Source: Chloropicon primus
Lineage: Eukaryota
Reading direction: 5' to 3'
NCBI GenBank assembly: GCA_023205875.1
Contig: CP060766.1
Span: forward strand, 248,001-312,000
Length of the DNA: 64,000 nt
Shown here: in pieces, positions 13,571 through 64,000 of the stretch
Layout: every line of letters starts with the position of its first letter
How positions within the stretch are numbered: the stretch's first letter is position 1
Program-made: the position numbers and the translations under genes
The notes under the pieces: model-generated
The model's database searches: none
What the model was told of the DNA's origin: nothing
The model's input: only the letters and a program-made list of their open reading frames with translations

Positions 13571-16500
13571 ATGTCTGGGAAAACAGAAAAGCAGGAGGTA
13601 TCTTACGAGTCTCTGAACGGCGTCGGCTCGGCCACCTCTCGGAATGGGCTGGCCGTGAACTTGGAAGGGGCGAAGGCGAAAAATATCATCACTTCTTCGC
13701 CGAGGAGGGAGAGAGCAGAAGTAAGGAAGGTGTACTGTGACTACTCACTGGGGTTGTTTAGCAAGGGCAATAGGCTCCGACACGCTTGCATCAAGATCGT
13801 GGAGAGCCCAATATTTGAGGCCGTCATCATTGCGGCTATTGTCCTCAACTGCACGTTCCTGGCCCTTACGGAACCAACGCGGGGCCCGAACGAAGGCAGA
13901 AACAAGTTGGTCAATGATTCAGAGATACCGTTCAGCGTCCTGTTCATACTCGAGGCTTTCATCAAGGTGATGGCGATGGGCCTCTTCTTCGAGCCGACGA
14001 AGGCTTTTCGATCCACGGCAAAGTCGCAGAAGAAGGCAAAGCAGGGGAAGTACTTCCCCGCGTCCGTGGAGTACGTGTACATGCCTACCTATCTCAGGGA
14101 CGGTTGGAACGTCCTTGACTTTATTGTGGTCGTTGGTGGGATCATCTCCCTCTCGGGAACCAAGTCAAGCATATCGAGTATCAGGACGATACGGGTGCTT
14201 AGGCCGCTGAGGACGATATCTGCGTTACCAGGAATGAGGATCCTCGTTGGAACTATTATTAGGTCACTGCCGATGATGGGAAACGTGCTCCTGTTGAGCG
14301 CCTTCCTCTTCATCGTTTTCGGCATCTCCGGTGTGCAGCTCTTCAAAGGGATCTTGAGAAACAGGTGCTTCTCTGTGGGACCAGGTTCGAGCTTGACCCT
14401 CGTGGACAGTGAAAGGGTCTGCACGATGTCTGGCAAATATGCATGGGTTGGGAATGTTTGCGGCGCGGGGGAAGTGTGCAGGGAGTACGAAAATCCCAAT
14501 TACGGGATCACGTCGTTCGACAATATCCTCTGGGCGTGGTTGACGATCTTTCAAATCATCACGCTAGAGGGCTGGACGCCCATCATGTACCACGTGATGG
14601 ACGCGACGAGTGGCTGGAGCATGTTCTATTTCATAATGCTGATAGGCCTGGGGGCTTTTTTCTTGATCAACCTAGCCGTGGGAATCGTCGCTGAGGTGTA
14701 CGATCAGGTCCAGGAAGAGGACGAGAAGGAGGAGGAGGAGGAGGAGGAAAACGAGGAGATCGATTTGTATAGCTACCTTGATCTGAATCCCGAGCCGGAA
14801 AAGGGGCTGTGGATCAAGAGCCTGGTCCAAGGGTTTTGCAAGCCTGTCATCAACCACGTCTTGTTCGACCCGTTCTTCACCGTGATGATTGTGATGAATA
14901 CCATCCTGCTCGCGATGGAGTACGACAACATGCCAAAGGACTACGAGCACAAACTGACCGTGCTTAACACGATCCTGACGTATTCCTTTGTGGTGGAGAT
15001 GGTACTGAAGATAGGCGGCAAGCAGATGCTGTACTTCAAGGACAAGTCAGATCTGTTCGACATGTTTGTCACCATCGTGTCAATGGTGGAGACGCTTGCG
15101 ACGTCCAACGGGTCTTTGACGGCGCTGAGGGCGTTTAGAATTCTGAGAATTCTTCGCATCTTCCGAAGGTGGAAGAGCCTGCAAGACTTCATCAAAATTC
15201 TTTCGGAGACCGTGTCGAACCTTGGCAACTTCACGTTTATCGTTCTCCTCGTCATCTTCATCTACGCGCTCCTGGGCATGGATTTATTTGGGAATAAATT
15301 CCATTTCAGCGACGGGAGACCTCGGCACAACTTTGATACCTTGATATGGTCCATCTTGTCGGTGTTTCAGATACTGACGGGGGAAGATTGGAATGCGATC
15401 ATGTACGATGGGATAAGGGCCACGAGCAGCGTCTCGGCGTTCTACTTTCTTTCCCTCATCTTGGTCGGGCAGTACATCATCTTGAACCTGTTCATCGCCA
15501 TTCTGCTGGCAAACTTCGAGGCGCAACACTTGGAGGACGAGGAAGAAGAAGAAAAGGTGGCGCAGGGGTTCACATCCAAGTCAAAGAAGACTTTTCACAG
15601 GATGCTGGTCTCCGCAAGGAACCGCATGACTTTCGCTGTGCAGAAGATCAAGTCTTCTGTCTTTGGAATCACGAGGAGGGAGTCGTACCTGCCAGGGGAG
15701 AGCGGGGGCAACAGAAACAAAGTGTTGGAGGATGAGAGGTTCCACAACTTTGTGGAAAACGCAAAGCTGTTGGACTTGGAAGATCTCCAAAACTTGGAGG
15801 AGTACAATGAGCTTGACGAGAGGCAGGCAGAGCTGGTGAGGAAGATCATAGAAATAAAGAACAAGAAATCGTTCTCTGCGAGCAGCAGAGACCCCTTCAG
15901 CCGGCGGCACTCCTTGTCTTTCCAGTACAGCAAGAAAGAGGACGGAACAGTGCTTCATGGGAAGAGTCTGTGCATCTTCCCTCCCGATAGCAAATTTCGA
16001 AAGATGCTGTTCGCCATCGTGGACGACAGGCGGTTCGAGTATTTCATTCTGATTCTGATTCTGATCAGCAGTATCGCAATGGCGTGCGAGGTTCCAAGAC
16101 CTTCCGAAAAGGAGAAGAACTTCTTTTACGTCCTTGATGTGGTCTTCTTGGTCATTTTTGGCTTGGAAGCGATGATGAAGATCACTGCGTTTGGCTTTGT
16201 GTTCGGCAAGAACCATTACATACACGATGCCTGGAACTGCCTGGATTTCCTTATTGTCCTCATGTCCTTCTTCGGTGTTGCCCTTGCAACGTTGAATGTC
16301 GAGGGCCTCAGCATCTTTCGGGTAATGAGGACTCTGAGGCCCCTGCGATTCTTGTCGAGGGTGCCGCAACTTAAAGTTGTCGTGAATGCCCTGCTGAAGT
16401 CGGTTCCCGCCCTGGGCAACGTGGCGGTGATCAGCATTATTTTCTATGCCATCTGTGGCATCCTGTCGATGCAGCTGTTCATGGGCAAGTTCCATTACTG

Positions 16501-18382
16501 CAGCTCTGACCTGTGCTGCACCGCGTCTGGTAACGGCACGGAGCACTGCAGTCAGGTGCTCACAAAGTACAACTGTGTCGGCTACGCGGAATCCGCGACG
16601 AGTGGGGAGGAGTGCAGCTGGGAGAACGAGAGGATGAACTTCGACAACATCTATAACTCGTTGCTGACTCTCTTCGAGATGTCGACGACGGAGGGGTGGA
16701 CCACAGTGATGTACGCCGCCGTCGATGCAACGGGGAAGGACAAGCAGAGGGTTCGCGACTATTCGCCAGTGGTAGCGTTGTACTTTCTGATCCTCATGGT
16801 CTTCCTGTCCTTCTTCATCTTGAACCTCTTTGTTGGTATCATCCTGGATACTTTCAGCGAGATGCAACGCAAGAACAATTACGCGAGCAACTTCTTGACG
16901 CCCGAGCAGCAGACGTGGGTGGATTCCCAAAAGATGGCCTTTACTTCTACTCCGAAGCCAGTGCACATATACAGCGATTCCTTGAAGAAGGACTTGCTGA
17001 AGTGGGTGGACAGCTCTCAGTTCGAGACAGGAATATTGGTTCTGATCGTGACGAATGTGATCTTCATGATGTTCGAGCACGAAAACCAGCAAAAGTGGGT
17101 CTCGGACACCCTCATCATATCGAACTTTGTGTTCACTATGATCTTCCTGCTGGAGGCCGTAATCAAAATCATCACGTACTCGATGAACAAGATCAATTAC
17201 TTTGGTAACGGGTGGAACAAATTCGATTTTGTGGTCGTCCTGTTTTCCGTCTTCGGGCTGATCAGCGGGAACGGCGGGGGCGCGTCCGTCTTGCGTGTTT
17301 TCAGGATCGCCAGAGTATTCAGGCTCGTGAAGAGGTTGAATGGCTTGAACATCCTGTTCAAGACCCTGCTGATATCGCTTCCGACCATGCTGAATGTCGG
17401 GGGGCTCATGTTCATCTTCTTCTTCATCTTTGCGGTGCTTGGAATGAACTTGTTCGGGAAAGTGGAAACCAGCGAGACGTACGCTAACTTCCAGCACTTT
17501 GGCTGGTCCCTCTTGACCTTGCTGAGAATGTCGACGGGTGAGGCGTGGAACAGCATCATGGAAGAGCTGATGGTGCAGCCTCCCGATTGCGAGAAGGCGA
17601 AGTTCCCCTACTGCAAGAACACGACCTCTGCCCCCGCGTTTGGCTTGGCGATGTACACGCAAGCCAATTGCACAGGGCCAGACATGTCTTGGATCACGGC
17701 CGTTGACAACTGCGGTGCAGCAGACTTCGCGATCCTTTACATGGTCGCGTTTATTCTGTTCGGCAGCTTCATCTTTCTGAACCTTGTGATAGCGGTGGTG
17801 CTCGAAAACTTTTCTCTCATGCTCAAGCTAGACGCGGGTCCGATCACTCCCCACGACATCAGATCGTTCGAAGCCGTTTGGTCTACGTTCGACCCGAGGG
17901 CAAAGGGTTACATCATGCAGGCTGATCTGAAGAAGCTGTTCTTTTCCACGCCGCCTCCGCTGGGTTTGCAGGGCCAGAGGATCCTGCCCAACGATTTGGA
18001 GACCTGGATACGGGAGCTGAAGCTCGGGGACAAGCCATTCAAGAGCTATCACGAGGTGCTGGGGTCTCTGCTGCGGAGGGCTGTCAAGGAGAACGACGTC
18101 GCAGCCTCGATTCCAGAGGAGGTCAAAATTCTGATGGACATCCAACTGAAGAAGACGTTGACGAAGCACGAGCACAACCCCATAAAGAAGCAGACCAAGT
18201 ACAAGAAGCTGGCAAACAAGGCCGACATCTTGTTCGCGGTCATCACCATCCAGAGAGTCTGCCGCAGGTGGCTGGACAAGAAGAAAAGGGGCGAGGAGAA
18301 GGCGACCGAATCGGAATCGCTAGAGGAGAGGGCGACAAAGTTGATAAAGAAGAAAAGCTTCTTCGAGAACGGGGGGCTTTGA
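13571..18382 (+). CDS. Four-domain voltage-gated calcium channel alpha subunit (Cav-like)
   Basis: Four S4 segments (e.g. IRTIRVLRPLRTI). Pore loops TLEGW, TGEDW, TTEGW, TGEAW give EEEE. C-terminal EF-hand-like (W...DPRAKGYI) and IQ motif (IQRVCRRW). Confidence 0.95.
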   Translation: MSGKTEKQEVSYESLNGVGSATSRNGLAVNLEGAKAKNIITSSPRRERAEVRKVYCDYSLGLFSKGNRLRHACIKIVESPIFEAVIIAAIVLNCTFLALTEPTRGPNEGRNKLVNDSEIPFSVLFILEAFIKVMAMGLFFEPTKAFRSTAKSQKKAKQGKYFPASVEYVYMPTYLRDGWNVLDFIVVVGGIISLSGTKSSISSIRTIRVLRPLRTISALPGMRILVGTIIRSLPMMGNVLLLSAFLFIVFGISGVQLFKGILRNRCFSVGPGSSLTLVDSERVCTMSGKYAWVGNVCGAGEVCREYENPNYGITSFDNILWAWLTIFQIITLEGWTPIMYHVMDATSGWSMFYFIMLIGLGAFFLINLAVGIVAEVYDQVQEEDEKEEEEEEENEEIDLYSYLDLNPEPEKGLWIKSLVQGFCKPVINHVLFDPFFTVMIVMNTILLAMEYDNMPKDYEHKLTVLNTILTYSFVVEMVLKIGGKQMLYFKDKSDLFDMFVTIVSMVETLATSNGSLTALRAFRILRILRIFRRWKSLQDFIKILSETVSNLGNFTFIVLLVIFIYALLGMDLFGNKFHFSDGRPRHNFDTLIWSILSVFQILTGEDWNAIMYDGIRATSSVSAFYFLSLILVGQYIILNLFIAILLANFEAQHLEDEEEEEKVAQGFTSKSKKTFHRMLVSARNRMTFAVQKIKSSVFGITRRESYLPGESGGNRNKVLEDERFHNFVENAKLLDLEDLQNLEEYNELDERQAELVRKIIEIKNKKSFSASSRDPFSRRHSLSFQYSKKEDGTVLHGKSLCIFPPDSKFRKMLFAIVDDRRFEYFILILILISSIAMACEVPRPSEKEKNFFYVLDVVFLVIFGLEAMMKITAFGFVFGKNHYIHDAWNCLDFLIVLMSFFGVALATLNVEGLSIFRVMRTLRPLRFLSRVPQLKVVVNALLKSVPALGNVAVISIIFYAICGILSMQLFMGKFHYCSSDLCCTASGNGTEHCSQVLTKYNCVGYAESATSGEECSWENERMNFDNIYNSLLTLFEMSTTEGWTTVMYAAVDATGKDKQRVRDYSPVVALYFLILMVFLSFFILNLFVGIILDTFSEMQRKNNYASNFLTPEQQTWVDSQKMAFTSTPKPVHIYSDSLKKDLLKWVDSSQFETGILVLIVTNVIFMMFEHENQQKWVSDTLIISNFVFTMIFLLEAVIKIITYSMNKINYFGNGWNKFDFVVVLFSVFGLISGNGGGASVLRVFRIARVFRLVKRLNGLNILFKTLLISLPTMLNVGGLMFIFFFIFAVLGMNLFGKVETSETYANFQHFGWSLLTLLRMSTGEAWNSIMEELMVQPPDCEKAKFPYCKNTTSAPAFGLAMYTQANCTGPDMSWITAVDNCGAADFAILYMVAFILFGSFIFLNLVIAVVLENFSLMLKLDAGPITPHDIRSFEAVWSTFDPRAKGYIMQADLKKLFFSTPPPLGLQGQRILPNDLETWIRELKLGDKPFKSYHEVLGSLLRRAVKENDVAASIPEEVKILMDIQLKKTLTKHEHNPIKKQTKYKKLANKADILFAVITIQRVCRRWLDKKKRGEEKATESESLEERATKLIKKKSFFENGGL

Positions 18383-39473: not shown

Positions 39474-39708
39474 GACAACAACAACAACAACAAAACCTTT
39501 TCCTATCCCCCCCCCAAAAAAAAAACCAAAAGAAAAACCTTTTGGTGACGTCCCTTCCGTCCCAAGTCAAGTCAAGATGTCACAATGAGGATGAGGATGT
39601 AATGCTCCCTCTCGATCCCCTCTCTCGGTCGTCCGCTCGTCGTCGCCTCAAGTGACTTGGTCCTTCCTCGCCTCGCTTCACCCCCTTTCCCGCCCGATCG
39701 CGATGGGC

Positions 39709-40150
39709 CTCTCCCTGCACCGAAAGAGCTTCCTTGTCCAGGGGATCCGGGCACCTGGAGGAGGAGGACGAGGAGGAGGACGAAGGCAAAGGCTCTCAAT
39801 GGAAGGATGGAAGACGGGGGTACGGATTGTCTTGGTACGGATGAAGGGAAACGAGGTCAAGGACTTGGAACTCGGCGTCGGATCCTCTCCCTGCAACGAA
39901 AGAGCTTCCTTGTCCAGGGGATCCGGGCACCTGGAGGAGGAGGACGAGGAGGAGGACGAAGGCAAAGGCTCTCAATGGAAGGATGGAAGACGGGGGTACG
40001 GATTGTCTTGGTACGGATGAAGGGAAACGAGGTCAAGGACTTGGAACTCGGCGTCGGATCCTCTCCCTGCAACGAAAGAGCTTCCTTGTCCAGGGGATCC
40101 GGGCACCTGGAGGAGGAGGACGAGGAGGAGGACGAAGGCAAAGGCTCTCA
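39709..40150. repeat. Tandem repeat, 176 bp unit, about 2.5 near-identical copies
   Basis: CGAAAGAGCTTCCTTGTCC at 39721, 39897 and 40073. Confidence 0.95.
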
Positions 40151-40715
40151 TGGACAGGGAAGACGGAGACGAGGCCAAGGACTTGGAACTCGGCTGGACT
40201 CGGCTTGGGATCCTTTCCTCCTTTTTCTCCTTCTTCGTTCTCCTCGAAGAGGGTCCTCGTCTTGGTATGGATTAAGGGAATGCTTGCTGGGATCTTTGGA
40301 TGGTGAGCAGGGAAGGGAGTGGGGCAAGCAACATCAGAGGGACGAGAGGTGTGGGAGCGGAAGGAGGATATCCAGCAGACGGAAAGCGGAAGACAACGAG
40401 AGAAGCATCCATTCCATCGCTTGCAAAGCTTTGGAACACGTCAAAGTCCATCCACCTTTGACTGGTTTGGTTTGGTTTGTCCACAACCGTCTTCAGCTTG
40501 GCTTTGGCTTTGCTCAGGAGTGTGTGCTTGGTCTCGAGCGGGTGCAGGGGCCAAAGGTGGCAACTTTGACAAGTGAACGCAAAGCTTTGCTCGTTCCAGG
40601 TCTTTTGTGACGTATCCTTGAGCTGCCAAGGTTCAGACCATCCAGTTTTGTGCTGGTTCTCACTCTTGCCAGTGTTTCTGTGTTCTGTGTTCTTTGTGGT
40701 GTGTGAGGAAGGAGT

Positions 40716-44043: not shown

Positions 44044-44482
44044 AGAGAGAGAGACAGAGACGGGCAGAGAGAGGAGGGTGAGGGTGAGGACAAGGGGTGG
44101 ATGGTAGAGGAGGGGGGATAGATGGCCACTCCCTGCTCTTGCTCTTGCTCTTTTCGAAGAGCCAGCCAGCCATGCATCACTGGAAACGGTTGAGGAGGAA
44201 TGCATGATGACAGAGAGAGAGACAGAGAGACGGGCAGAGAGAGGAGGGTGAGGGTGAGGACAAGGAGTGGATGGTAGAGCAGGGGGGGTAGATGGCCACT
44301 CCCTGCTCTTGCTCTTGCTCTTGCTCTTTTCGAAGAGCCAGCCAGCCATGCATCACTGGAAACGGTTGAGGAGGAATGCATGATGACAGAGAGAGAGACA
44401 GAGACGGGCAGAGAGAGGAGGGTGAGGGTGAGGACAAGGAGTGGAGGAGGGGGACTCCTTGATGGCCACTCCCTGCTCTTGC
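44044..44482. repeat. Tandem repeat, about 170-174 bp unit, about 2.5 copies
   Basis: CGGGCAGAGAGAGGAGGGTGAGGGTGAGGACAAGG at 44061, 44231 and 44405. Confidence 0.95.
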
Positions 44483-44673
44483 TGTGGTTGTAATGGTGAG
44501 GAGGAGACTCTCCACCGGAAGGAGGAGAAGAAAGAGAGACGACAAGCGTGGAGAACCACTGGAAAGGAAGAGGAGGGGTGCAGGAGTGAAAGCAGCCATG
44601 GAAAGGATGGATGGATGATGCAAGGCATTCATGATGGACGGACGCTCAGTCCCTCCTCGCCAGCCGTTGCCTC

Positions 44674-55675: not shown

Positions 55676-56780
55676 ATGGCGTTGTCGTGCCCGCTGCAGT
55701 GCGTCAGGAGGACCACGGAGCACGTGGCTAGCGTCGCCAACCACGTCACCATCTCCAAAAAAGGTAAGACACGAGAAAAACCCACAAGTTCCTCGATCCA
55801 TCCAACCTGCTCACTGACGCGTCGCCCTCCTTCTGCTTCTCACCATGGAATGGACATCGCCCGTCGCCGTCGTCACTCAAGGCATCGAGGCCCTGGTGTC
55901 GTCGCGGCTGAGCGAGGAGAGCGTGCGGGGCCTGGACCTGAGGAAGTGGGACGAGACGGACCACCTCGTGGAGACTGATCAACAGGGTCACCATCACCCT
56001 GATGTGAGGGCGCAGTACATGCTCGTGGTGGATGCGGTGAACTTTTGCTTCTGGCCGGACGACGAGCTCGAGTACGAGCACATCGCGGGGAACCTGAAGG
56101 CGTCCGTGTCGGAGAACCCGTCGTGCATCTCTTCCGAGAGCCTGGCCACGTTGACTCCGCTTGGCCTGAGGGCTCTGCTCAAGTGGCCGAGGCCCCTGCC
56201 CCAGGAGGAGGAGAGGGCCAGGCTGGTGAGGGAGGTGGGCATCGAGCTGGGGAGGTCCTTCGGGGGCCAGGCGGCAAACCTGGTGAGGGCCGCGAACCAA
56301 TCGGCGGCCGAGCTGGTGAGGCTCGTGGTTGCCCACTTTCCGGGGTTCAGGGACTCGTGCGTGTACGGCGGGAGCCAAGTCTTCCTGTACAAGCGTGCGC
56401 AAATCTTCGTCGGGGACTTGTACGGGTCCTTCAGGGGCGAGGGCCTCGGGAAGTTCCGCGACATCGCCAACCTCACCATGTTCGCCGACTACAGGGTCCC
56501 AGTCACCCTGCTGGAGCTCGGGGTCCTCGAGTACGGCAAGGAGCTCAGCGGTGCCGTGGCGGCCAAGGAGGTCCTCGAGCCGGGGTGCCCCCAGGAGGTG
56601 GAGATCAGGGCGTGCACCGTCCGCGCGGTCGAGATGATCCTGGAGGAGATGAGGAGGACCTTCAAGGACGCGAGCCTGGTCCCGATGAGCATCGAGCTGG
56701 ACTGGTTCCTTTGGAAGGAGGGAGAGAAGAGGAGAGACGTCTCCGATCCCCACCACAGGGTCCTCACGATCTTTTACTGA
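55676..56780 (+). CDS. QNG1: Queuosine nucleotide N-glycosylase / Q salvage protein (DUF2419) (exons 55676-55763, 55882-56780)
   Basis: VDAVNFCFW, FPGFRD, YKRAQIFVGDL, LTMFADYRVP, EVEIRA, LDWFLW, PHHRVLTIFY. Phase-1 intron 55764-55881. Confidence 0.92.
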
Positions 56781-57246
56781 GTGGGAGGACAGCAAGCAGT
56801 GCGTGTGGGAGAAGGAGAGGACTGTCCAGGGAAGAAAAATATATTAAATATTTAATACTTGATTATAATTTTGCTTTGTTTTGTTTTGTGTTTGCTCGTT
56901 CGTTCGCTCCTCGAGAGCTCGATGACGACAGAGCAGCTTCCGCGATGAGGAGGACGAAGACCACCACCAGCATCGTAGATGGGGACGGGAGTTGGCCAAG
57001 GAGAGAGAGAGAGACGAGGCCAAGGAGGGAACCTCCTGTCCTGTCCTGTTGAGGAGATTCCTGCCCCGGTTTCGAAAGATCCGGCAGGAGCTGAAAGAGG
57101 GAATAACATGCATAAAAAAAGACAAACGTTTGTGTTTGTGTACTTTTAGATCTTGAAAAGGAACAAAGGAGGAACCTTGGGAGGCTCGAAGCAGGACCAG
57201 TGGTCGTTGCTAAAACCCCAAACACTTGATCCACGGTTTCTTTGAA

Positions 57247-59970
57247 TTAAGGCACGTTAACTGTCTTCGACCTGCCATTACCACGAACAAGGACCGGCCT
57301 GACCACGCCTTCCGCTTTCTTGGCCTTGACGGTCACGTCGTTGCGGTTTCCGCGAGCCAAGGCGCGGAGCCTGTTGCGATCAGATTTCTTGGCCTTGACG
57401 GTCACGTCGTTGCGGTTTCCGCGAGCCATGGCGCGGAGCCTGTTGCGATCAGATGCCTCGGTCTCGACGGTCACGCCGTTGCGGTTTCCACGAGCCATGG
57501 CGCGGAGTCTGTTGCGATCAGATTCCGCGGTCACGACGGTCACGTCGTTGCGGTTTCCGCGAGCCATGGCGCGGAGCCTGTTGCGATCAGATGCCTCGGT
57601 CTCGACGGTCACGCCGTTGCGGTTTCCACGAGCCATGGCGCGGAGTCTGTTGCGATCAGATTCCGCGGTCACGACGGTCACGTCGTTGCGGTTTCCGCGA
57701 GCCATGGCGCGGAGCCTGTTGCGATCAGATGCCTCGGTCTCGACGGTCACGCCGTTGCGGTTTCCACGAGCCATGGCGCGGAGTCTGTTGCGATCAGATT
57801 CCGCGGTCACGACGGTCACGTCGTTGCGGTTTCCGCGAGCCATGGCGCGGAGCCTGTTGCGATCAGATGCCTCGGTCTCGACGGTCACGCCGTTGCGGTT
57901 TCCACGAGCCATGGCGCGGAGTCTGTTGCGATCAGATTCCGCGGTCACGACGGTCACGTCGTTGCGGTTTCCGCGAGCCATGGCGCGGAGCCTGTTGCGA
58001 TCAGATGCCTCGGTCTCGACGGTCACGCCGTTGCGGTTTCCACGAGCCATGGCGCGGAGTCTGTTGCGATCAGATTCCGCGGTCACGACGGTCACGTCGT
58101 TGCGGTTTCCGCGAGCCATGGCGCGGAGCCTGTTGCGATCAGATTCCTCGGTCTCGACGGTCACGTCGTTGCGGTTTCCGCGAGCCACGGCACCAACACG
58201 ATTGTCGTCCGCATCGTCAACAGCACCAGCAATCACCATGTTGTCATCACCACGAGCCGCGGCACTAACACGATTGTCGTCCGCATCCTCAACAGCACCA
58301 GCCTCCACTGTATTGTCATCACCACGAGCCACGGCACCAACACGATTGCCAAAGGAATCTACAACAGCACCAGCAGTCACTGTATTGTCATCACCACGAG
58401 CCACGGCACCAACACGATTCATGCTAGATTCAACTTGAGCAACAGCAGTCACTGTGTTGTTCTCACCACGAGCCACGGCACCAACACGATTCATGTCAGC
58501 AAATTCAGCAGCACCAGCCTCCACTGTGTTGTTGTCACCACGAGCCACGGCACCAACACGATTCATGTCAGCAAATTCAGCAGCACCAGCCTCCACTGTA
58601 TTGTCATCACCGCGAGCCGCGGCACCAACACGATTGTCGTCCGCACCATCAACAGCACCAGCAATCACCATATTGTCATCACCGCGAGCCACGGCACCAA
58701 CACGATTCATGTCAGATTCTTGAGAAGCAGTAGCAAACAATAAGTTTGCATTCCCGTCAGCCACAGCACTAACGTTATTCATGGTAGCAAAATCATCAGC
58801 TTCGGCAGTCACATTGTTGCCATCACCGCGAGCCGCGGCATCAACACGATTGTCGACAACATTCTCAGAAGCTGAAGCCTTCACTGTGTTCTCATCGCCA
58901 CGAGCCACGGCATCAACGTCATTCATGGTAGCATTACCATAAGCTTCGGCAGTCACTGTGTTATCATCACCACGAGCCACGGCACCAACACGATTGTCGT
59001 CCGCATCCTCAGAACCTGCAGCAGTCACTGTGTTGCCATCACCGCGAGCCGCAGCATCAACGTCATTCATGTCAGATGCACCAACAGCAACAGCAGTCAC
59101 TGTATTATTGTCACCACGAGCCACGGCACCAACACGATTCATGCTAGATTCAGCTTGAGCAACAGCAGTCACTGTGTTGCCATCACCACTTGCCACGGCA
59201 TCAACGTCATTCATGTCAGATGCACCAACAGCAACAGCAGTCACTGTATTATTGTCACCGCGAGCCACGGCACCAACACGATTCATGTCAGATTCAGCTT
59301 CAGCAGTAGCAAACAATAAGTTTGCATTCCCGTCAGCCACGGCACCAACGTCATTCATGGTAGCAGTCTCAGAAGCTTGGGCAGTCACTGTGTTGCCCTC
59401 ACCACGAGCCACGGCTTCAACGTCATTCATGGTAGCACCAAACGCAGCAGTTGCAGTCACTGTGTTGTTATCACCATGAGCCACGGCTTCAACGTGATTC
59501 ATGTCAGCACCAACAGAAGAAGCAGAAACGGTGTTCTCCGAGCCGACAGCCGAAGCGCGGAGGTCATTGTCGTCCCCGCCGTCAGCCGTAGCACTTGCGG
59601 TGGACGACGAACCTTTTGCTTCGCCCGTCAACATTCCGTCACCAGAAACCTCGGTCATGACGATCTCACCCGCACCACTCATGGAGGCGGTGCTGCTGCC
59701 TTGAGCAGCGCCATCGGTGGTCATCGCCATGACCTTTGCTTTGGTGTCTCCGGCGTCGGCCTCAGCGGAGGCCATGAAGGTGCCGCTGCCGTCGACTTCC
59801 GCCTTGCTTGTTTCGCTCGCGATGCCAATACCGCTGCTCCCAACGGTGCTCGCCTTGGACCTTCCGTAGCTGTGGGGCCTCCCCCACCTCTGGCCGTACA
59901 CAGGCGTGGCGGCGGCCACCACCACCACCACGGCCAGCCAAACGCACAACCACTCGACGTTCTTTTTCAT
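57247..59970 (-). CDS. Secreted 23/24-aa tandem-repeat protein, predicted curlin-like beta-solenoid, copy 1
   Basis: Signal peptide MKKNVEWLCVWLAVVVVVAAATPVYG. 72-nt repeats NRVGAVARGDDNTVxAxAxxxxxx, then 69-nt repeats NRLRAMARGNRNDVTVxTxxSDR. Confidence 0.85.
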   Translation of the reverse strand: MKKNVEWLCVWLAVVVVVAAATPVYGQRWGRPHSYGRSKASTVGSSGIGIASETSKAEVDGSGTFMASAEADAGDTKAKVMAMTTDGAAQGSSTASMSGAGEIVMTEVSGDGMLTGEAKGSSSTASATADGGDDNDLRASAVGSENTVSASSVGADMNHVEAVAHGDNNTVTATAAFGATMNDVEAVARGEGNTVTAQASETATMNDVGAVADGNANLLFATAEAESDMNRVGAVARGDNNTVTAVAVGASDMNDVDAVASGDGNTVTAVAQAESSMNRVGAVARGDNNTVTAVAVGASDMNDVDAAARGDGNTVTAAGSEDADDNRVGAVARGDDNTVTAEAYGNATMNDVDAVARGDENTVKASASENVVDNRVDAAARGDGNNVTAEADDFATMNNVSAVADGNANLLFATASQESDMNRVGAVARGDDNMVIAGAVDGADDNRVGAAARGDDNTVEAGAAEFADMNRVGAVARGDNNTVEAGAAEFADMNRVGAVARGENNTVTAVAQVESSMNRVGAVARGDDNTVTAGAVVDSFGNRVGAVARGDDNTVEAGAVEDADDNRVSAAARGDDNMVIAGAVDDADDNRVGAVARGNRNDVTVETEESDRNRLRAMARGNRNDVTVVTAESDRNRLRAMARGNRNGVTVETEASDRNRLRAMARGNRNDVTVVTAESDRNRLRAMARGNRNGVTVETEASDRNRLRAMARGNRNDVTVVTAESDRNRLRAMARGNRNGVTVETEASDRNRLRAMARGNRNDVTVVTAESDRNRLRAMARGNRNGVTVETEASDRNRLRAMARGNRNDVTVVTAESDRNRLRAMARGNRNGVTVETEASDRNRLRAMARGNRNDVTVKAKKSDRNRLRALARGNRNDVTVKAKKAEGVVRPVLVRGNGRSKTVNVP

Positions 59971-60385: not shown

Positions 60386-60534
60386 AGAGGAGAGGAGAGG
60401 CCTCGGGAGGAGAGACAGGGACGGGAGTTGGGCAAGGAGAGAGACGAGGATAGGGAGGGAACCTCCTCCTGTCCTGGGTTCGAGAAAGATGAGTGCTTTG
60501 GTCAATGGAAACGACGACGATCGACGTTGGGAGT

Positions 60535-60663
60535 GGAGGACCTTCAAGGACTGCGAGCCTGGTCCCGATGAGCATCGAGCTGGACTGGTTCCTTTGGAAG
60601 GAGGGAGAGAAGAGGAGAGACGTCTCCAATCCCCACCACAGGGTCCTCGCGATCTTTTACTGA
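60535..60663 (+). pseudogene. 3' fragment of QNG1 carried by the duplication
   Basis: Copy of 56653-56780 with a 1-nt insertion (GGACTGCGAG vs GGACGCGAG) and substitutions; no 5' portion. Confidence 0.85.
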
Positions 60664-61129
60664 GTGGGAGGACAGCAAGCAGTGCGTGTGGGAGAAGGAG
60701 AGGACTGTCCAGGGAAGAAAAATATATTAAATATTTAATACTTGATTATAATTTTGCTTTGTTTTGTTTTGTGTATGCTCGTTCGTTCGCTCCTCGAGAG
60801 CTCGATGACGACAGAGCAGCTTCCGCGATGAGGAGGACGAAGACCACCACCAGCATCGTAGATGGGGACGGGAGTTGGCCAAGGAGAGAGAGAGAGACGA
60901 GGCCAAGGAGGGAACCTCCTGTCCTGTCCTGTTGAGGAGATTCCTGCCCCGGTTTCGAAAGATCCGGCAGGAGCTGAAAGAGGGAATAACATGCATAAAA
61001 AAAGACAAACGTTTGTGTTTGTGTACTTTTAGATCTTGAAAAGGAACAAAGGAGGAACCTTGGGAGGCTCGAAGCAGGACCAGTGGTCGTTGCTAAAACC
61101 CCAAACACTTGATCCACGGTTTCTTTGAA

Positions 61130-64000
61130 TTAAGGCACGTTAACTGTCTTCGACCTGCCATTACCACGAACAAGGACCGGCCTGACCACGCCTTCCGCTT
61201 TCTTGGCCTTGACGGTCACATCGTTGCGGTTTCCACGAGCCATGGCGCGGAGCCTGTTGCGATCAGATTCCTCGGTCTCGAAGGTCACGTCGTTGCGGTT
61301 TCCGCGAGCCATGGCGCGGAGTCTGTTGCGATCAGAGTCCACGGTCACGACGGTCACGTCGTTGCGGTTTCCGCGAGCCATGGCGCGGAGCCTGTTGCGA
61401 TCAGATTCCAAGGTCTCGACGGTCACATCGTTGCGGTTTCCACGAGCCATAGCGCGGAGTCTGTTGCGATCAGATGCCTCGGTCTCGACGGTCACGCCGT
61501 TGCGGTTTCCGCGAGCCATGGCGCGGAGCCTGTTGCGATCAGATTCCAAGGTCTCGACGGTCACATCGTTGCGGTTTCCACGAGCCATGGCGCGGAGTCT
61601 GTTGCGACCAGATGCGTCGGTCTCGACGGTCACGTTGTTGCGGTTTCCGCGAGCGATGGCGCGGAGCCTGTTGCGATCAGATTCCTCGGTCACGACGGTC
61701 ACATCGTTGCGGTTTCCGCGAGCCATGGCACGGAGTCTGTTGCGATCAGATGCCTCGGTCTCGACGGTCACGCCGTTGCGGTTTCCACGAGCCATGGCGC
61801 GGAGCCTGTTGCGATCAGATTCCCCGGTCACGACGGTCACGTCGTTGCGGTTTCCGCGAGCCATGGCGCGGAGCCTGTTGCGATCAGATGCCTCGGTCAC
61901 GACGGTCACATCGTTGCGGTTTCCACGAGCCACGGCACCAACACGATTCATGTCAGCAAATTCAACAAAAGCCTCCACTTCATTGCGATCACCACGAGCC
62001 ACGGCACCAACACGATTGTCGTCCGCATCGTCAACAGCCAAAGCCATCACCATATTGTCATCACCGCGAGCCACGGCACCAACACGATTCATGTCAGCTT
62101 CACCTTCAGCACCAGCAACAACTGTGTTGTTCTCACCACGAGCCACGGCATCAACGCGATTCATGTCAGCAGATTGAGCACCAGCATTCACTGTGTTGTC
62201 ATCACCACGAGCCACGGCACCAACACGATTGTCGTCCGCACCCTCAAAAGCCTCAGCAATCACTGTGTTGTCATCACCACGAGCCACGGCACCAACACGA
62301 TTCATGTCAGCACCAAACTCAGCAGAAGCCTCCACTTCATTGCGATCACCACGAGCCACGGCACCAACACGATTCATGTCAGCAAGTTGAACAGCCAAAG
62401 CCATCACCATATTGTCATCACCGCGAGCCACGGCACCAACACGATTCATGTCAGCTTCACCTTGAGCACCAGCAATCACCATATTGTCATCACCACGAGC
62501 CGCGGCACCAACACGATTGTCGTTCGCATCCTCAACAGCAGCAGCCTCCACTATATTGTCATCACCACGAGCCACGGCACCAACACGATTCATGTCAGAT
62601 TCTTGAGAAGCAGTAGCAAACAATAAGTTTGCATTCCCGTCAGCCACAGCACTAACGTTATTCATGGTAGCAAAATCATCAGCTTCGGCAGTCACATTGT
62701 TGCCATCACCGCGAGCCACGGCACCAACACGATTCATGTCAGCTTCAGCATCAGCAGTAGCCATCACCATATTGTCATCACCACGAGCCGCGGCACCAAC
62801 ACGATTGCCAAAGGAATCTACAACAGCACCAGCAATCACTGTGTTGTTCTCACCACGAGCCACGGCATCAACGTCATTCATGTCAGATGCAACAACAGCA
62901 ACAGCAGTCACTGTATTATTGTCACCGCGAGCCACGGCACCAACACGATTCATGTCAGATTCTTGAGAAGCAGTAGCAAACAATAAGTTTGCATTCCCGT
63001 CAGCCACAGCACTAACGTTATTCATGGTAGCAAAATCATCAGCTTCGGCAGTCACATTGTTGCCATCACCGCGAGCCGCGGCATCAACACGATTGTCGAC
63101 AACATTCTCAGAAGCTGAAGCCTTCACTGTGTTCTCATCGCCACGAGCCATGGCGCGGAGCCTGTTGCGATCAGATGCCTCGGTCTCGACGGTCACGTCG
63201 TTGCGGTTTCCACGAGCCACGGCACCAACACGATTGTCGTCCGCATCGTCAACAGCACCAGCAATCACCATATTGTCATCACCGCGAGCCACGGCACCAA
63301 CACGATTCATGTCAGCTTCAGCTTCAGCAGTAGCCATCACCATATTGTCATCACCACGAGCCGCGGCACCAACACGATTGCCAGAGGAAACTACAACAGC
63401 ACCAGCAATCACTGTGTTGTCATCACCACGAGCCACGGCGCCAATGTCATTCATGTCAGATGCAGCAACAGCACCAGCAGTCACTGTATTGTTCTCACCA
63501 CGAGCCACGGCACCAACACGATTCATGTCAGCTTCAGCTTCAGCAGTAGCCATCACCATATTGTCATCACCGCGAGCCACGGCACCAACACGATTCATGT
63601 CAGATTCTTGAGAAGCAGTAGCAAACAATAAGTTTGCATTCCCGTCAGCCACAGCACTAACGTTATTCATGGTAGCAAAATCATCAGCTTCGGCAGTCAC
63701 ATTGTTGCCATCACCGCGAGCCGCGGCATCAACACGATTCGCTTCTCAGAAGCTGAAGCCTTCACTGTGTTCTCATCGCCACGAGCCACGGCATCAACGT
63801 CATTCATGGTAGCATTACCATAAGCTTCGGCAGTCATATCACCACGAGCCGCGGCACCAACACGATTGTCGTCCGCATCCTCAGAACCTGCAGCAGTCAC
63901 TGTGTTGCCATCACCGCGAGCCGCAGCATCAACGTCATTCATGTCAGATGCACCAACAGCACCAGCAATCACTGTGTTGTTCTCACCACGAGCCACGGCA
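61130..64000 (-). CDS. Curlin-like repeat protein, copy 2; 5' end outside the window; apparent frameshift near 63740
   Basis: Same repeat types and identical C-terminus (…GNGRSKTVNVP). Repeats continue in another frame at 63697-63996. Confidence 0.75.

What the first reader, a model, noticed from the sequence alone, without database searches (positions are those of the whole stretch)
57247..59970. Secreted curlin-like beta-solenoid repeat protein in an algal nuclear genome
Seen: a signal peptide, a Ser/Gly/Ala-rich linker, then more than 30 tandem units of 23-24 aa. Each unit has two Asn-initiated strands with alternating small or aliphatic residues, N-R-V-G-A-V-A-R-G-D-D / N-T-V-x-A-x-A-x(5-6). 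Known: bacterial CsgA/CsgB curlin half-repeats follow N-x-h-x-h-x-Q-x-G-x-x and stack into a cross-beta solenoid with Asn/Gln ladders. The first half-unit here has exactly that 11-residue spacing with Q replaced by A. The repeats lack Pro and Cys and are nearly free of aromatic residues. Inference: an extracellular beta-solenoid or functional-amyloid fibre (cell wall, adhesion, or ice/mineral binding) exported by the eukaryotic secretory pathway. No csg export genes are in this window. I know of no described family matching it.
Basis: partly seen in the sequence, partly recalled or inferred. Interest (0 to 1): 0.9.

Follow-up and report, generated by a model that had tools for sequence, protein, structure and literature searches.

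The report
Curli-like charged rod protein in alga
A tiny marine green alga encodes a 907-residue protein of 32 tandem repeats, acidic in its first part and arginine-rich in its last, that is predicted to be secreted and to fold like the building block of bacterial curli fibres and that likely self-assembles into a surface fibre, though it lacks curli's glutamine ladder and no fibre has been shown.

Summary
The ORF is real: 907 aa, minus strand, with a hydrophobic N-terminus and 32 units of 23-24 aa. Neighbouring genes cluster with Chloropicon primus proteins. The inward-facing codons vary almost only at third positions, so the frame is under selection. Single-sequence AlphaFold2 gives a two-strand-per-unit beta-solenoid (pLDDT 77; 87 for a fragment). 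The top solved match for both models is curli CsgA 8c50 (Z 32-36, next 20-22, but rmsd about 8). The protein has two blocks: 19 acidic units (net -51) then 13 Arg-ladder units (+30), the layout of ice-nucleation-protein WO/R coils. The Arg block matches the NCBIfam CsgA model (E 7e-13, below its cut-off). A tandem second copy lies downstream, and a published C. primus-specific orthogroup holds 7 'hypothetical' gene models. It is not a curlin by definition: Gln occupies 0 of 64 ladder positions and Pfam Curlin_rpt is not met. No relative outside C. primus was found. Best reading: a secreted, curli-shaped rod of about 15 nm that likely self-assembles through complementary charge blocks and/or end-stacking. 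Secretion, fibre formation, function and bacterial origin are untested.

The parts
57247..59970 (-). Full ORF, 907 aa (P0001), no intron needed
   Evidence: the ESM Atlas holds the sequence letter for letter
59893..59970 (-). Predicted signal peptide, aa 1-26 (basic start, hydrophobic core 7-22; cleavage site judged by eye)
   Evidence: hydropathy; SignalP not available
59638..59892 (-). Ser/Gly/Ala-rich N-terminal segment, aa 27-111, low-confidence in the model (tether or degenerate rungs)
   Evidence: pLDDT < 50 for 1-111; composition
59569..59637 (-). Lead-in degenerate rung, aa 112-134, modelled as two strands
58204..59568 (-). Acidic block: 19 units (1x23 + 18x24 aa), net charge -51, acid mainly in the two arcs; 8 N-x-S/T sequons; GC3 0.36
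57307..58203 (-). Arg-rich block: 13 units of 23 aa, near-perfect 138-bp double unit, net +30, Arg ladders on the outward face of strand 1; matches the NCBIfam CsgA model at E 6.7e-13
57250..57306 (-). C-terminal tail, aa 889-907, degenerate rung with two prolines (892, 907); possible cap
61130..64000 (-). Tandem second copy: 846-aa ORF from an internal Met (63670) with 24 acidic-type + 11 Arg-type units in shuffled order and the same last 30 aa. Upstream repeats continue in another frame beyond a 7-nt deletion near 63743; the start lies outside the window
60535..61300 (.). Duplicated flank, 98.4% identical over 766 bp to 56653-57417; carries the 3' end of the queuosine-salvage gene and the 3' end of the repeat gene

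Best explanation
This is a selected protein-coding gene of the picoalga Chloropicon primus whose product is predicted to be secreted and to fold as a curli-shaped, two-sheet beta-solenoid rod of about 15 nm, and which likely self-assembles outside the cell into a surface or wall fibre. Shown from sequence: 32 rungs with invariant Asn (positions 1, 12) and Gly (9); a small Val/Ala (acidic block) or Leu/Ala/Val/Thr (basic block) core in place of curli's Gln ladder; a -51 acidic block followed by a +30 block with Arg ladders on one face. Predicted: one beta-arch per unit. Inferred: the protein enters the ER through its signal peptide; the Arg block of one rod docks on the acidic block of another (as proposed for the R-coils of bacterial ice-nucleation proteins) and/or rods stack end to end by beta-sheet extension as curli do; spare Arg faces bind acidic wall polymers. 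Whether the repeat came from a bacterial curlin or converged on the same rung is open; I put it near even.
For: Purifying selection on this frame: across 35 distinct 24-aa units of both copies, inward positions vary 1.3/0.3/10.2% at codon positions 1/2/3, outward ones 17.5/37.5/25%. AF2 without alignment: whole protein pLDDT 76.6, all five models 71-77, no helix; aa 112-469 pLDDT 87.1, pTM 0.84. VIA-align against 48,161 chains: CsgA 8c50 ranks first for both models (Z 31.9, rmsd 8.3, 355 aligned, next 21.8; Z 36.0, rmsd 7.7, 327 aligned, next 19.7). NCBIfam CsgA is the best of 18,950 models for the Arg block of both copies (E 6.7e-13 and 3.9e-8; two 138-aa pieces 1.2e-5 and 1.5e-8). Of 19 weak hits of the repeat profile among 1.84 billion proteins, 3 carry Pfam Curlin_rpt above its cut-off and 1 more weakly matches CsgB. 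The charge blocks recur in both copies, with 13 and 11 Arg units; INPs keep 10 or 12 C-terminal R-coils in 107 of 120 sequences and need them for multimer activity (PMC10727499). The family is kept at several loci (orthogroup OG0000223, 7 gene models on 4 chromosomes) and two members have RNA-seq depth 22 and 30. Contigs of runs X1 and X2 match parts of the ORF with no differences (189 and 168 nt).
Against: No Gln at ladder positions 7 or 18 in any of 32 units, although Gln ladders are thought to be a major stabiliser of curli (PMC10192328 section 7). The acidic block alone does not match CsgA. Foldseek finds no PDB match at E <= 0.001 for either model (8c50 at E 2.2 and 1.6), and the rmsd to 8c50 is about 8 A; the model's hand may differ, a known artefact of AF2 runs without alignment. 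The C-terminal tail has two prolines and could cap the rod. The other 15 profile hits include plainly unrelated repeats that score higher than the curlins (best E 5.7e-10, a DnaJ protein). Two of four paralogues with data are barely expressed (0.13, 1.55), and none stands out as a bulk wall protein (first 15 genes of that table range 0-79). C. primus is described with a thin, smooth, layered wall; fibrous walls are reported for the sister genus (PMC5656628). The second copy is frameshifted in this assembly.
Confidence: 0.45

Rival explanations
1. It is a secreted beta-solenoid rod that does not polymerise. It works as a single rigid adhesin or spacer: the Arg face grips acidic wall polymers and the variable acidic block is displayed outward (contact with bacteria, viruses, grazers or mating partners).
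For: Possible Pro cap at the C-terminus and a low-confidence N-terminal segment. Units are shuffled between copies and outward residues vary. The next structural matches are non-amyloid adhesins and beta-helices such as EtpA (Z 19.7-21.8). Modest expression. The genome has 59 mostly silent sialyltransferase genes, suggesting an acidic surface in some life stage (PMC6731263).
Against: No recognisable ligand-binding domain or membrane anchor. The conserved two-block charge layout is more simply explained by rod-to-rod pairing. The rung period and Asn ladders match a fibre-forming fold.
Confidence: 0.33
2. It is an ice-nucleating or ice-binding protein: Thr pairs on strand 2 order water, and the Arg block multimerises the rods as in bacterial INPs.
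For: Acidic coils followed by 13 or 11 Arg coils, as in INPs. TxT in 7 of units 2-9. One of 16 segments hits the grass antifreeze beta-roll model at E 0.004. Ice-nucleation clusters appear at rows 9-10 of the Atlas structure list (TM 0.61).
Against: TxT in only 9 of 32 units, and 2 of 35 in copy 2. One Tyr in the repeats and no SLT. The coil is 23-24 aa, not 16. No Pfam Ice_nucleation hit. The published strains come from the Gulf Stream and North Pacific, where freezing is not an obvious pressure (my inference).
Confidence: 0.08
3. It is a young, repeat-expanded orphan ORF with little or no function; the fold is an artefact of periodic sequence.
For: Species-restricted. The Arg block is a 98%-identical 138-bp minisatellite. 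Copy 2 is frameshifted here, and the published strain record A3770_13p69490 stops after 96 aa. Structure predictors give solenoids readily for periodic sequences (general knowledge).
Against: The codon-position pattern alternates with the inward/outward register. The frame is open over 2.7 kb while the other frames hold 3-85 stops. An intact hydrophobic N-terminus. Expressed paralogues on other chromosomes.
Confidence: 0.09

Closest known systems
Curli subunits CsgA/CsgB (Pfam PF07012; Pontibacter korlensis CsgA R15.5, PDB 8c50)
   Same: Period of about 23 aa; two N-x-h-x-h-x-z strands joined by an x-G-x-x arc; Asn at 1 and 12; predicted two-sheet beta-solenoid; top VIA match; Arg block matches the NCBIfam CsgA model at E 6.7e-13; N-terminal export signal.
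   Different: No Gln ladder (Ala/Thr instead); Pfam and NCBIfam cut-offs not met; eukaryotic host with no CsgG-type gene among the window ORFs scanned; acidic/basic two-block layout; possible Pro cap; handedness unknown; fibre formation not shown.
Bacterial ice-nucleation proteins (InaZ, PbINP) with WO-coils and R-coils
   Same: A single long beta-solenoid with an acidic N-terminal block of variable length followed by about a dozen C-terminal Arg-rich coils (13 and 11 here; 10-12 in INPs).
   Different: 23-24-aa instead of 16-aa coils; no regular TxT/SLT or Tyr ladder; no sequence match; no membrane-anchor domain.
Trimeric autotransporter adhesins (KEGG K21449), the automatic label given to four paralogues
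   Same: Low-complexity Ala/Gly/Val/Asn/Thr beta-roll repeats; the BpaC head scores Z 15.7-16.4.
   Different: No YadA-type anchor, stalk or head Pfam match; eukaryotic; longer rungs. The label is a GhostKOALA 'secondary KO' also given to 7 genes outside the orthogroup in the part of the table held (11 rows).
C. primus orthogroups OG0000223 / OG0000274 (hypothetical proteins, PMC12301720 File S1)
   Same: OG0000223 contains A3770_13p69490, 99% identical to this protein's first 96 aa. By gene order this gene corresponds to 13p69460 (inferred).
   Different: Listed only as hypothetical, with no structure or function described. I could not see the other members' sequences, so whether all carry the repeats is untested.

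Membership tests
Curlin (CsgA/CsgB) | Repeat of about 23 aa with two N-x-h-x-h strands and an x-G-x-x arc (N1, G9, N12) | tested here: met
   32 of 32 units; N1, G9, N12 invariant in units 2-32; definition from PMC10192328 section 6
Curlin (CsgA/CsgB) | Gln at positions 7 and 18 (Q-X10-Q kernel) | tested here: not met
   0 of 32 at each position; Ala at 7 in 31 of 31 (units 2-32), Ala or Thr mostly at 18. Degenerate curlins can lose Q; curlin hit P0012 has Q in 2 of 10 half-repeats
Curlin (CsgA/CsgB) | Reaches the curated cut-off of Pfam Curlin_rpt or NCBIfam CsgA | tested here: not met
   Pfam: no hit for the whole protein; 4 of 16 segments, best E 0.35. NCBIfam CsgA: 32.2 bits whole, 48.8 bits Arg block, cut-off 160; acidic block no hit
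Curlin (CsgA/CsgB) | Two-sheet beta-solenoid, one beta-arch per repeat | tested here: met
   Predicted only: AF2 pLDDT 76.6 and 87.1; 8c50 top by VIA
Curlin (CsgA/CsgB) | Left-handed, untwisted solenoid | tested here: inconclusive
Curlin (CsgA/CsgB) | Encoded with the csg export genes (type VIII secretion) | tested here: not met
   No Csg family among 33 window ORFs of 200 aa or more at E 1e-5 or the 5 ORFs; ORFs under 200 aa were mostly not scanned and no whole genome was held
Curlin (CsgA/CsgB) | Polymerises head to tail into cross-beta amyloid fibres | not testable with these tools
Ice-nucleation proteins (InaZ type) | 16-residue coils | tested here: not met
   Units are 23-24 aa; no Pfam Ice_nucleation match
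Ice-nucleation proteins (InaZ type) | Continuous TxT/SxT arrays and Tyr ladder | tested here: not met
   TxT 9 of 32 and 2 of 35 units; one Tyr in the repeats
Ice-nucleation proteins (InaZ type) | Acidic coils followed by 10-12 C-terminal Arg-rich coils | tested here: met
   Net -51 over 19 units then +30 over 13; copy 2: -55 then +20 over 11; INP layout from PMC10727499
Ice-nucleation proteins (InaZ type) | Ice-nucleation activity | not testable with these tools
   Needs a droplet-freezing assay
Trimeric autotransporter adhesins | C-terminal YadA-type beta-barrel anchor and head/stalk repeats | tested here: not met
   No such Pfam or NCBIfam match for either copy

The most novel reading that the evidence does not exclude
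Chloropicon primus has its own curli: a family of ER-secreted, Gln-free curlin-type subunits, derived from a bacterial curlin gene, that builds a functional amyloid coat without any Csg export machinery, and that has independently evolved an ice-nucleation-protein-like Arg block to zip rods side by side into thick fibres.
Probability: 0.2. Interest if true: 0.87.

Novelty: new variant of a known kind. Interest (0 to 1): 0.6.

Why it matters
Curli-type solenoid amyloids are known from bacteria with a dedicated export system, and the searches here found no report of one in an alga. A green-algal version without the Gln ladder would test whether Asn ladders plus a dry Ala core suffice for curli-type fibres. 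The acidic-then-Arg layout would be an independent natural test of the electrostatic model proposed for ice-nucleation-protein fibres. Chloropicon is an important ocean picoplankter whose wall proteins appear undescribed, so this is a concrete candidate for its surface material and for protein in marine gels. The regular, Cys- and Pro-free repeat with two programmable faces would also be a useful biomaterial scaffold. If it does not polymerise, it is one more lineage-specific beta-solenoid surface protein of modest interest.

Tried and rejected
No whole genome was held, so paralogues were seen only as published locus tags. Three word-indexed protein searches found no full-length relative: one unrelated WD40-type protein, none among longer proteins, and only the 96-aa C. 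primus record among shorter ones. Each scored only about 8,000 candidates. The profile search returned no C. primus paralogue either, so these collections may lack or filter such repeats, and absence elsewhere is weakly tested. Exact look-ups of P0001 and 10 alternative starts or shadow ORFs were all absent. Metagenome contigs: 110 pattern matches, none confirmed; a short motif scan gave 3 loci, all single chance matches in short frames. Viral contigs: 42 pattern matches, none confirmed. Viral fold library: 1 match at E <= 0.001 with TM 0.14, rejected. Bacterial and archaeal genome contigs were not scanned at DNA level. PDB sequence search: best E 0.016, a designed LRR; the profile hit to Photorhabdus lectin PHL (E 5e-6) rests on a short ARGxDN word in a beta-propeller and was rejected. 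ESM Atlas features: curlin cluster at 0.79, under the 0.9 bar, a lead only; nothing usable for the Arg block. Its best structural rows are PPE clusters (TM by query 0.92-0.93, no family named). No RNA holder was listed as such; X1-X3 are guessed RNA and held as contigs, so gaps in cover and depth were not used. The complex predictor was not available, so self-association has no model. The antisense 336-aa ORF (57428-58438) was rejected as a shadow frame. The low GC3 of the acidic block was not taken as proof of transfer: units are not independent and the T excess is greater before G (186 of 228) than elsewhere (64 of 115). Earlier scan notes: none by sequence or place.
Full report
Observation. 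The minus strand from 59970 to 57247 is one open frame of 907 aa; the other five frames hold 3 to 85 stops over the same span. It begins with a basic-hydrophobic stretch (best 15-residue hydropathy 2.7, the only such region) that reads as a signal peptide; SignalP was not available. A Ser/Gly/Ala-rich segment follows, then 32 units: one of 23 aa, eighteen of 24 and thirteen of 23. The rung motif occurs 32 times against at most once in 2000 shuffles. Residues 135-888 have no Pro or Cys, 8 aromatic residues and 4 Gln in 754.

The protein has two blocks. Units 1-19 are degenerate and acidic (net -51, with the acid in the arcs: -23 and -32 over units 2-19). Units 20-32 are near-perfect, with a different consensus and net +30; the outward face of strand 1 carries 38 Arg in 52 positions and the face of strand 2 is net -16. 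A second copy lies in tandem from 61130 to beyond the window end. It has 24 acidic-type and 11 Arg-type units in an 846-aa ORF, the same last 30 residues, and units in shuffled order. Its upstream part is 94% identical to copy 1 but offset by a 7-nt deletion near 63743; this may be real or an assembly error. The duplication took along 766 bp of flank, including the 3' end of the neighbouring queuosine-salvage gene.

Host and family. Two neighbouring proteins share 90% clusters with Chloropicon primus records (3 of 9 sequences looked up were found). The window's other genes are eukaryotic housekeeping and algal genes such as actin, PRMT5 and Psb27. The only close protein found in three word-indexed searches was A3770_13p69490, 96 aa, 99% identical to the N-terminus. 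In File S1 of PMC12301720, the list of orthogroups specific to C. primus, it belongs to OG0000223 with 7 hypothetical gene models on chromosomes 3, 8, 10 and 13. OG0000274 lists 7 models on the same chromosomes in the other strain. That file also splits other families by strain, so 'specific' is soft. By gene order, copy 1 corresponds to 13p69460 and copy 2 to 13p69480 plus 13p69490 (inferred). Supplementary Data 2 of PMC6731263 gives four members RNA-seq depths of 0.13, 22.07, 29.58 and 1.55, no homologue in 13 other green algae at E 1e-10, and an automatic secondary label 'trimeric autotransporter adhesin'. The held file is cut before chromosome 13, so this gene's own row was not seen, and I could not see the paralogues' sequences.

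Is it a working gene? Across 35 distinct 24-aa units, the nine inward positions vary 1.3, 0.3 and 10.2% at codon positions 1, 2 and 3; the eight outward positions vary 17.5, 37.5 and 25%. That alternation is what selection on a beta-strand core gives, and a neutral minisatellite should not show it. Contigs from three public runs (guessed RNA) were laid on the locus. X3 splices a GT..AG intron in the neighbouring gene. X1 has a 189-nt exact match to the 5' part and X2 a 168-nt exact match in the Arg block. All three have short contigs with 5-13 differences that look like further paralogous units. This is weak support for transcription, and the exact matches could come from either copy.

Structure. 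AlphaFold2 without alignment gives an all-beta model, two strands per unit, from residue about 112 to 883 (mean pLDDT 76.6, mostly 85-93 in the Arg block, below 50 for 1-111). Residues 112-469 alone give 87.1, pTM 0.84. At 4.8 A per rung (PMC10192328 section 8) the rod is about 15 nm long. Against 48,161 solved chains, curli CsgA 8c50 ranks first for both models (Z 31.9, rmsd 8.3, 355 aligned, next 21.8; Z 36.0, rmsd 7.7, 327 aligned, next 19.7). Foldseek finds nothing at E <= 0.001 and ranks 8c50 at E 2.2 and 1.6. High Z with high rmsd fits a model of the other hand or with twist, which that paper reports for alignment-free AF2 runs on curlins; this is my inference, and the hand is unknown. 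Z-scores of long repeats are inflated, and a shared fold shows no function.

Relation to curlin. The curlin kernel is N-x-h-x-h-x-Q, x-G-x-x, repeated, mean period 23 (PMC10192328 section 6). Here N1, G9 and N12 are invariant, but Gln is at neither ladder position in any unit. Pfam Curlin_rpt is not reached (best E 0.35 in 4 of 16 segments). The NCBIfam CsgA model is, however, the best of 18,950 for the Arg block of both copies (E 6.7e-13, 3.9e-8) and for two 138-aa pieces (1.2e-5, 1.5e-8), far below its cut-off of 160 bits; the acidic blocks do not match. Summed scores over repeats inflate such E-values, and I had no period-preserving control against that library; three-unit pieces reach only E 0.016. 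A profile of 16 three-unit segments against 1.84 billion proteins gave 19 hits, none below 1e-10. Three are Pfam curlins, one more is curlin-like, and the others include unrelated repeats that score higher. The curlin-like hits score 36-45 bits against at most 8.3 when shuffled, but so does the unrelated top hit (54.9 against 5.9), so this control does not prove descent. One curlin hit has Gln in only 2 of 10 half-repeats, so Gln-poor curlins exist. The acidic block has GC3 0.36 against 0.72-0.93 in 14 neighbouring genes, which fits foreign origin but also repeat-specific C-to-T drift. Verdict: built like a curlin, not a member by the defining tests; transfer versus convergence is open.

Mechanism. 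I commit to a secreted rod that self-assembles into a surface or wall fibre (0.45). The strongest clue is the charge layout. Bacterial ice-nucleation proteins have acidic coils of variable number followed by 10 or 12 Arg coils in 107 of 120 sequences; cutting the Arg coils to six collapses activity, and the authors model fibres held by basic-on-acidic overlap (PMC10727499 passages). Here the counts are 13 and 11 Arg units after 19 and at least 24 acidic ones. End-to-end stacking as in curli (section 9) is possible, but the Pro-containing tail may cap one end. Rivals are a non-polymerising adhesin or spacer (0.33), an ice-active protein (0.08; TxT in 9 of 32 and 2 of 35 units) and a near-neutral orphan (0.09). 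Against a bulk wall role: modest paralogue expression, and a wall described as thin, smooth and layered in Chloropicon (PMC5656628 passages). No model of self-association could be run.

Novelty. No description of this family or of an algal curlin-like solenoid came up in library searches (listings and abstract starts only), or in term searches of the two genome papers' main text. The library lacks most subscription papers. Papers seen: PMC6731263 (passages; Supplementary Data 7 parts 55-56; Data 2 part 1 and rows), PMC12301720 (passages, section 7, File S1 parts 1-2 and rows), PMC10192328 (abstract, sections 6-9), PMC10727499, PMC5656628 and PMC13365547 (passages; the last shows that a eukaryote can secrete a signal-peptide-bearing solenoid with charged coils). 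Earlier scan notes list several curlin-like but unrelated prokaryotic repeat families (unchecked), a reminder that a top CsgA match is common for Asn-ladder solenoids.

Noticed in passing
window 60489-60935 (+) and 60535-60661: The tandem duplication copied the last ~125 bp of the queuosine-salvage gene, creating a 148-aa chimeric ORF that probably corresponds to a published 'hypothetical' gene model between the two copies.
   Followed up: partly
window 63600-64000 (-): Copy 2 carries a 7-nt frameshifting deletion (near 63743) and a 9-nt in-frame deletion (near 63837) relative to copy 1. Both published strains also have two gene models at this position; real pseudogene or assembly error is unresolved.
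   Followed up: partly
window 58204-59568 (-): The acidic block uses T-ending codons rare in the host (CGT 20 of 26 Arg codons against 2 of 136 in three neighbouring genes), while the Arg block has host-like GC3 (0.73): the two blocks have different histories.
   Followed up: partly
window 58204-59568 and 61949-63667 (-): RGD occurs 12 times in copy 1 and 17 times in the copy-2 ORF, at the first arc of the rung; probably incidental to the R-G ladder. There are also 8 N-glycosylation sequons in copy 1.
   Followed up: no
window 55760-55879 (+): A contig of run X3 splices a 118-nt GT..AG intron, extending the queuosine-salvage gene upstream of the 311-aa ORF.
   Followed up: no
window 39708-40154 and 44044-44483: Two unrelated 170-176-bp tandem duplications (2.3-2.6 copies, 90-99% matches) between genes.
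   Followed up: no
window 57428-58438 (+) and 61242-62616 (+): Long antisense shadow ORFs (271-380 aa) over the Arg blocks could mislead gene callers.
   Followed up: partly
window 13571-18382 (+): A 1603-aa four-domain voltage-gated cation channel gene (Ion_trans x4, GPHH) in a picoalga described as non-flagellate.
   Followed up: no
P0012 (metagenome/genome record, 350 aa): A curlin-repeat protein in which Gln is replaced by hydrophobic residues in 8 of 10 motif-matching half-repeats' ladder position (mostly non-Gln), useful for testing the origin of Gln-free rungs.
   Followed up: partly
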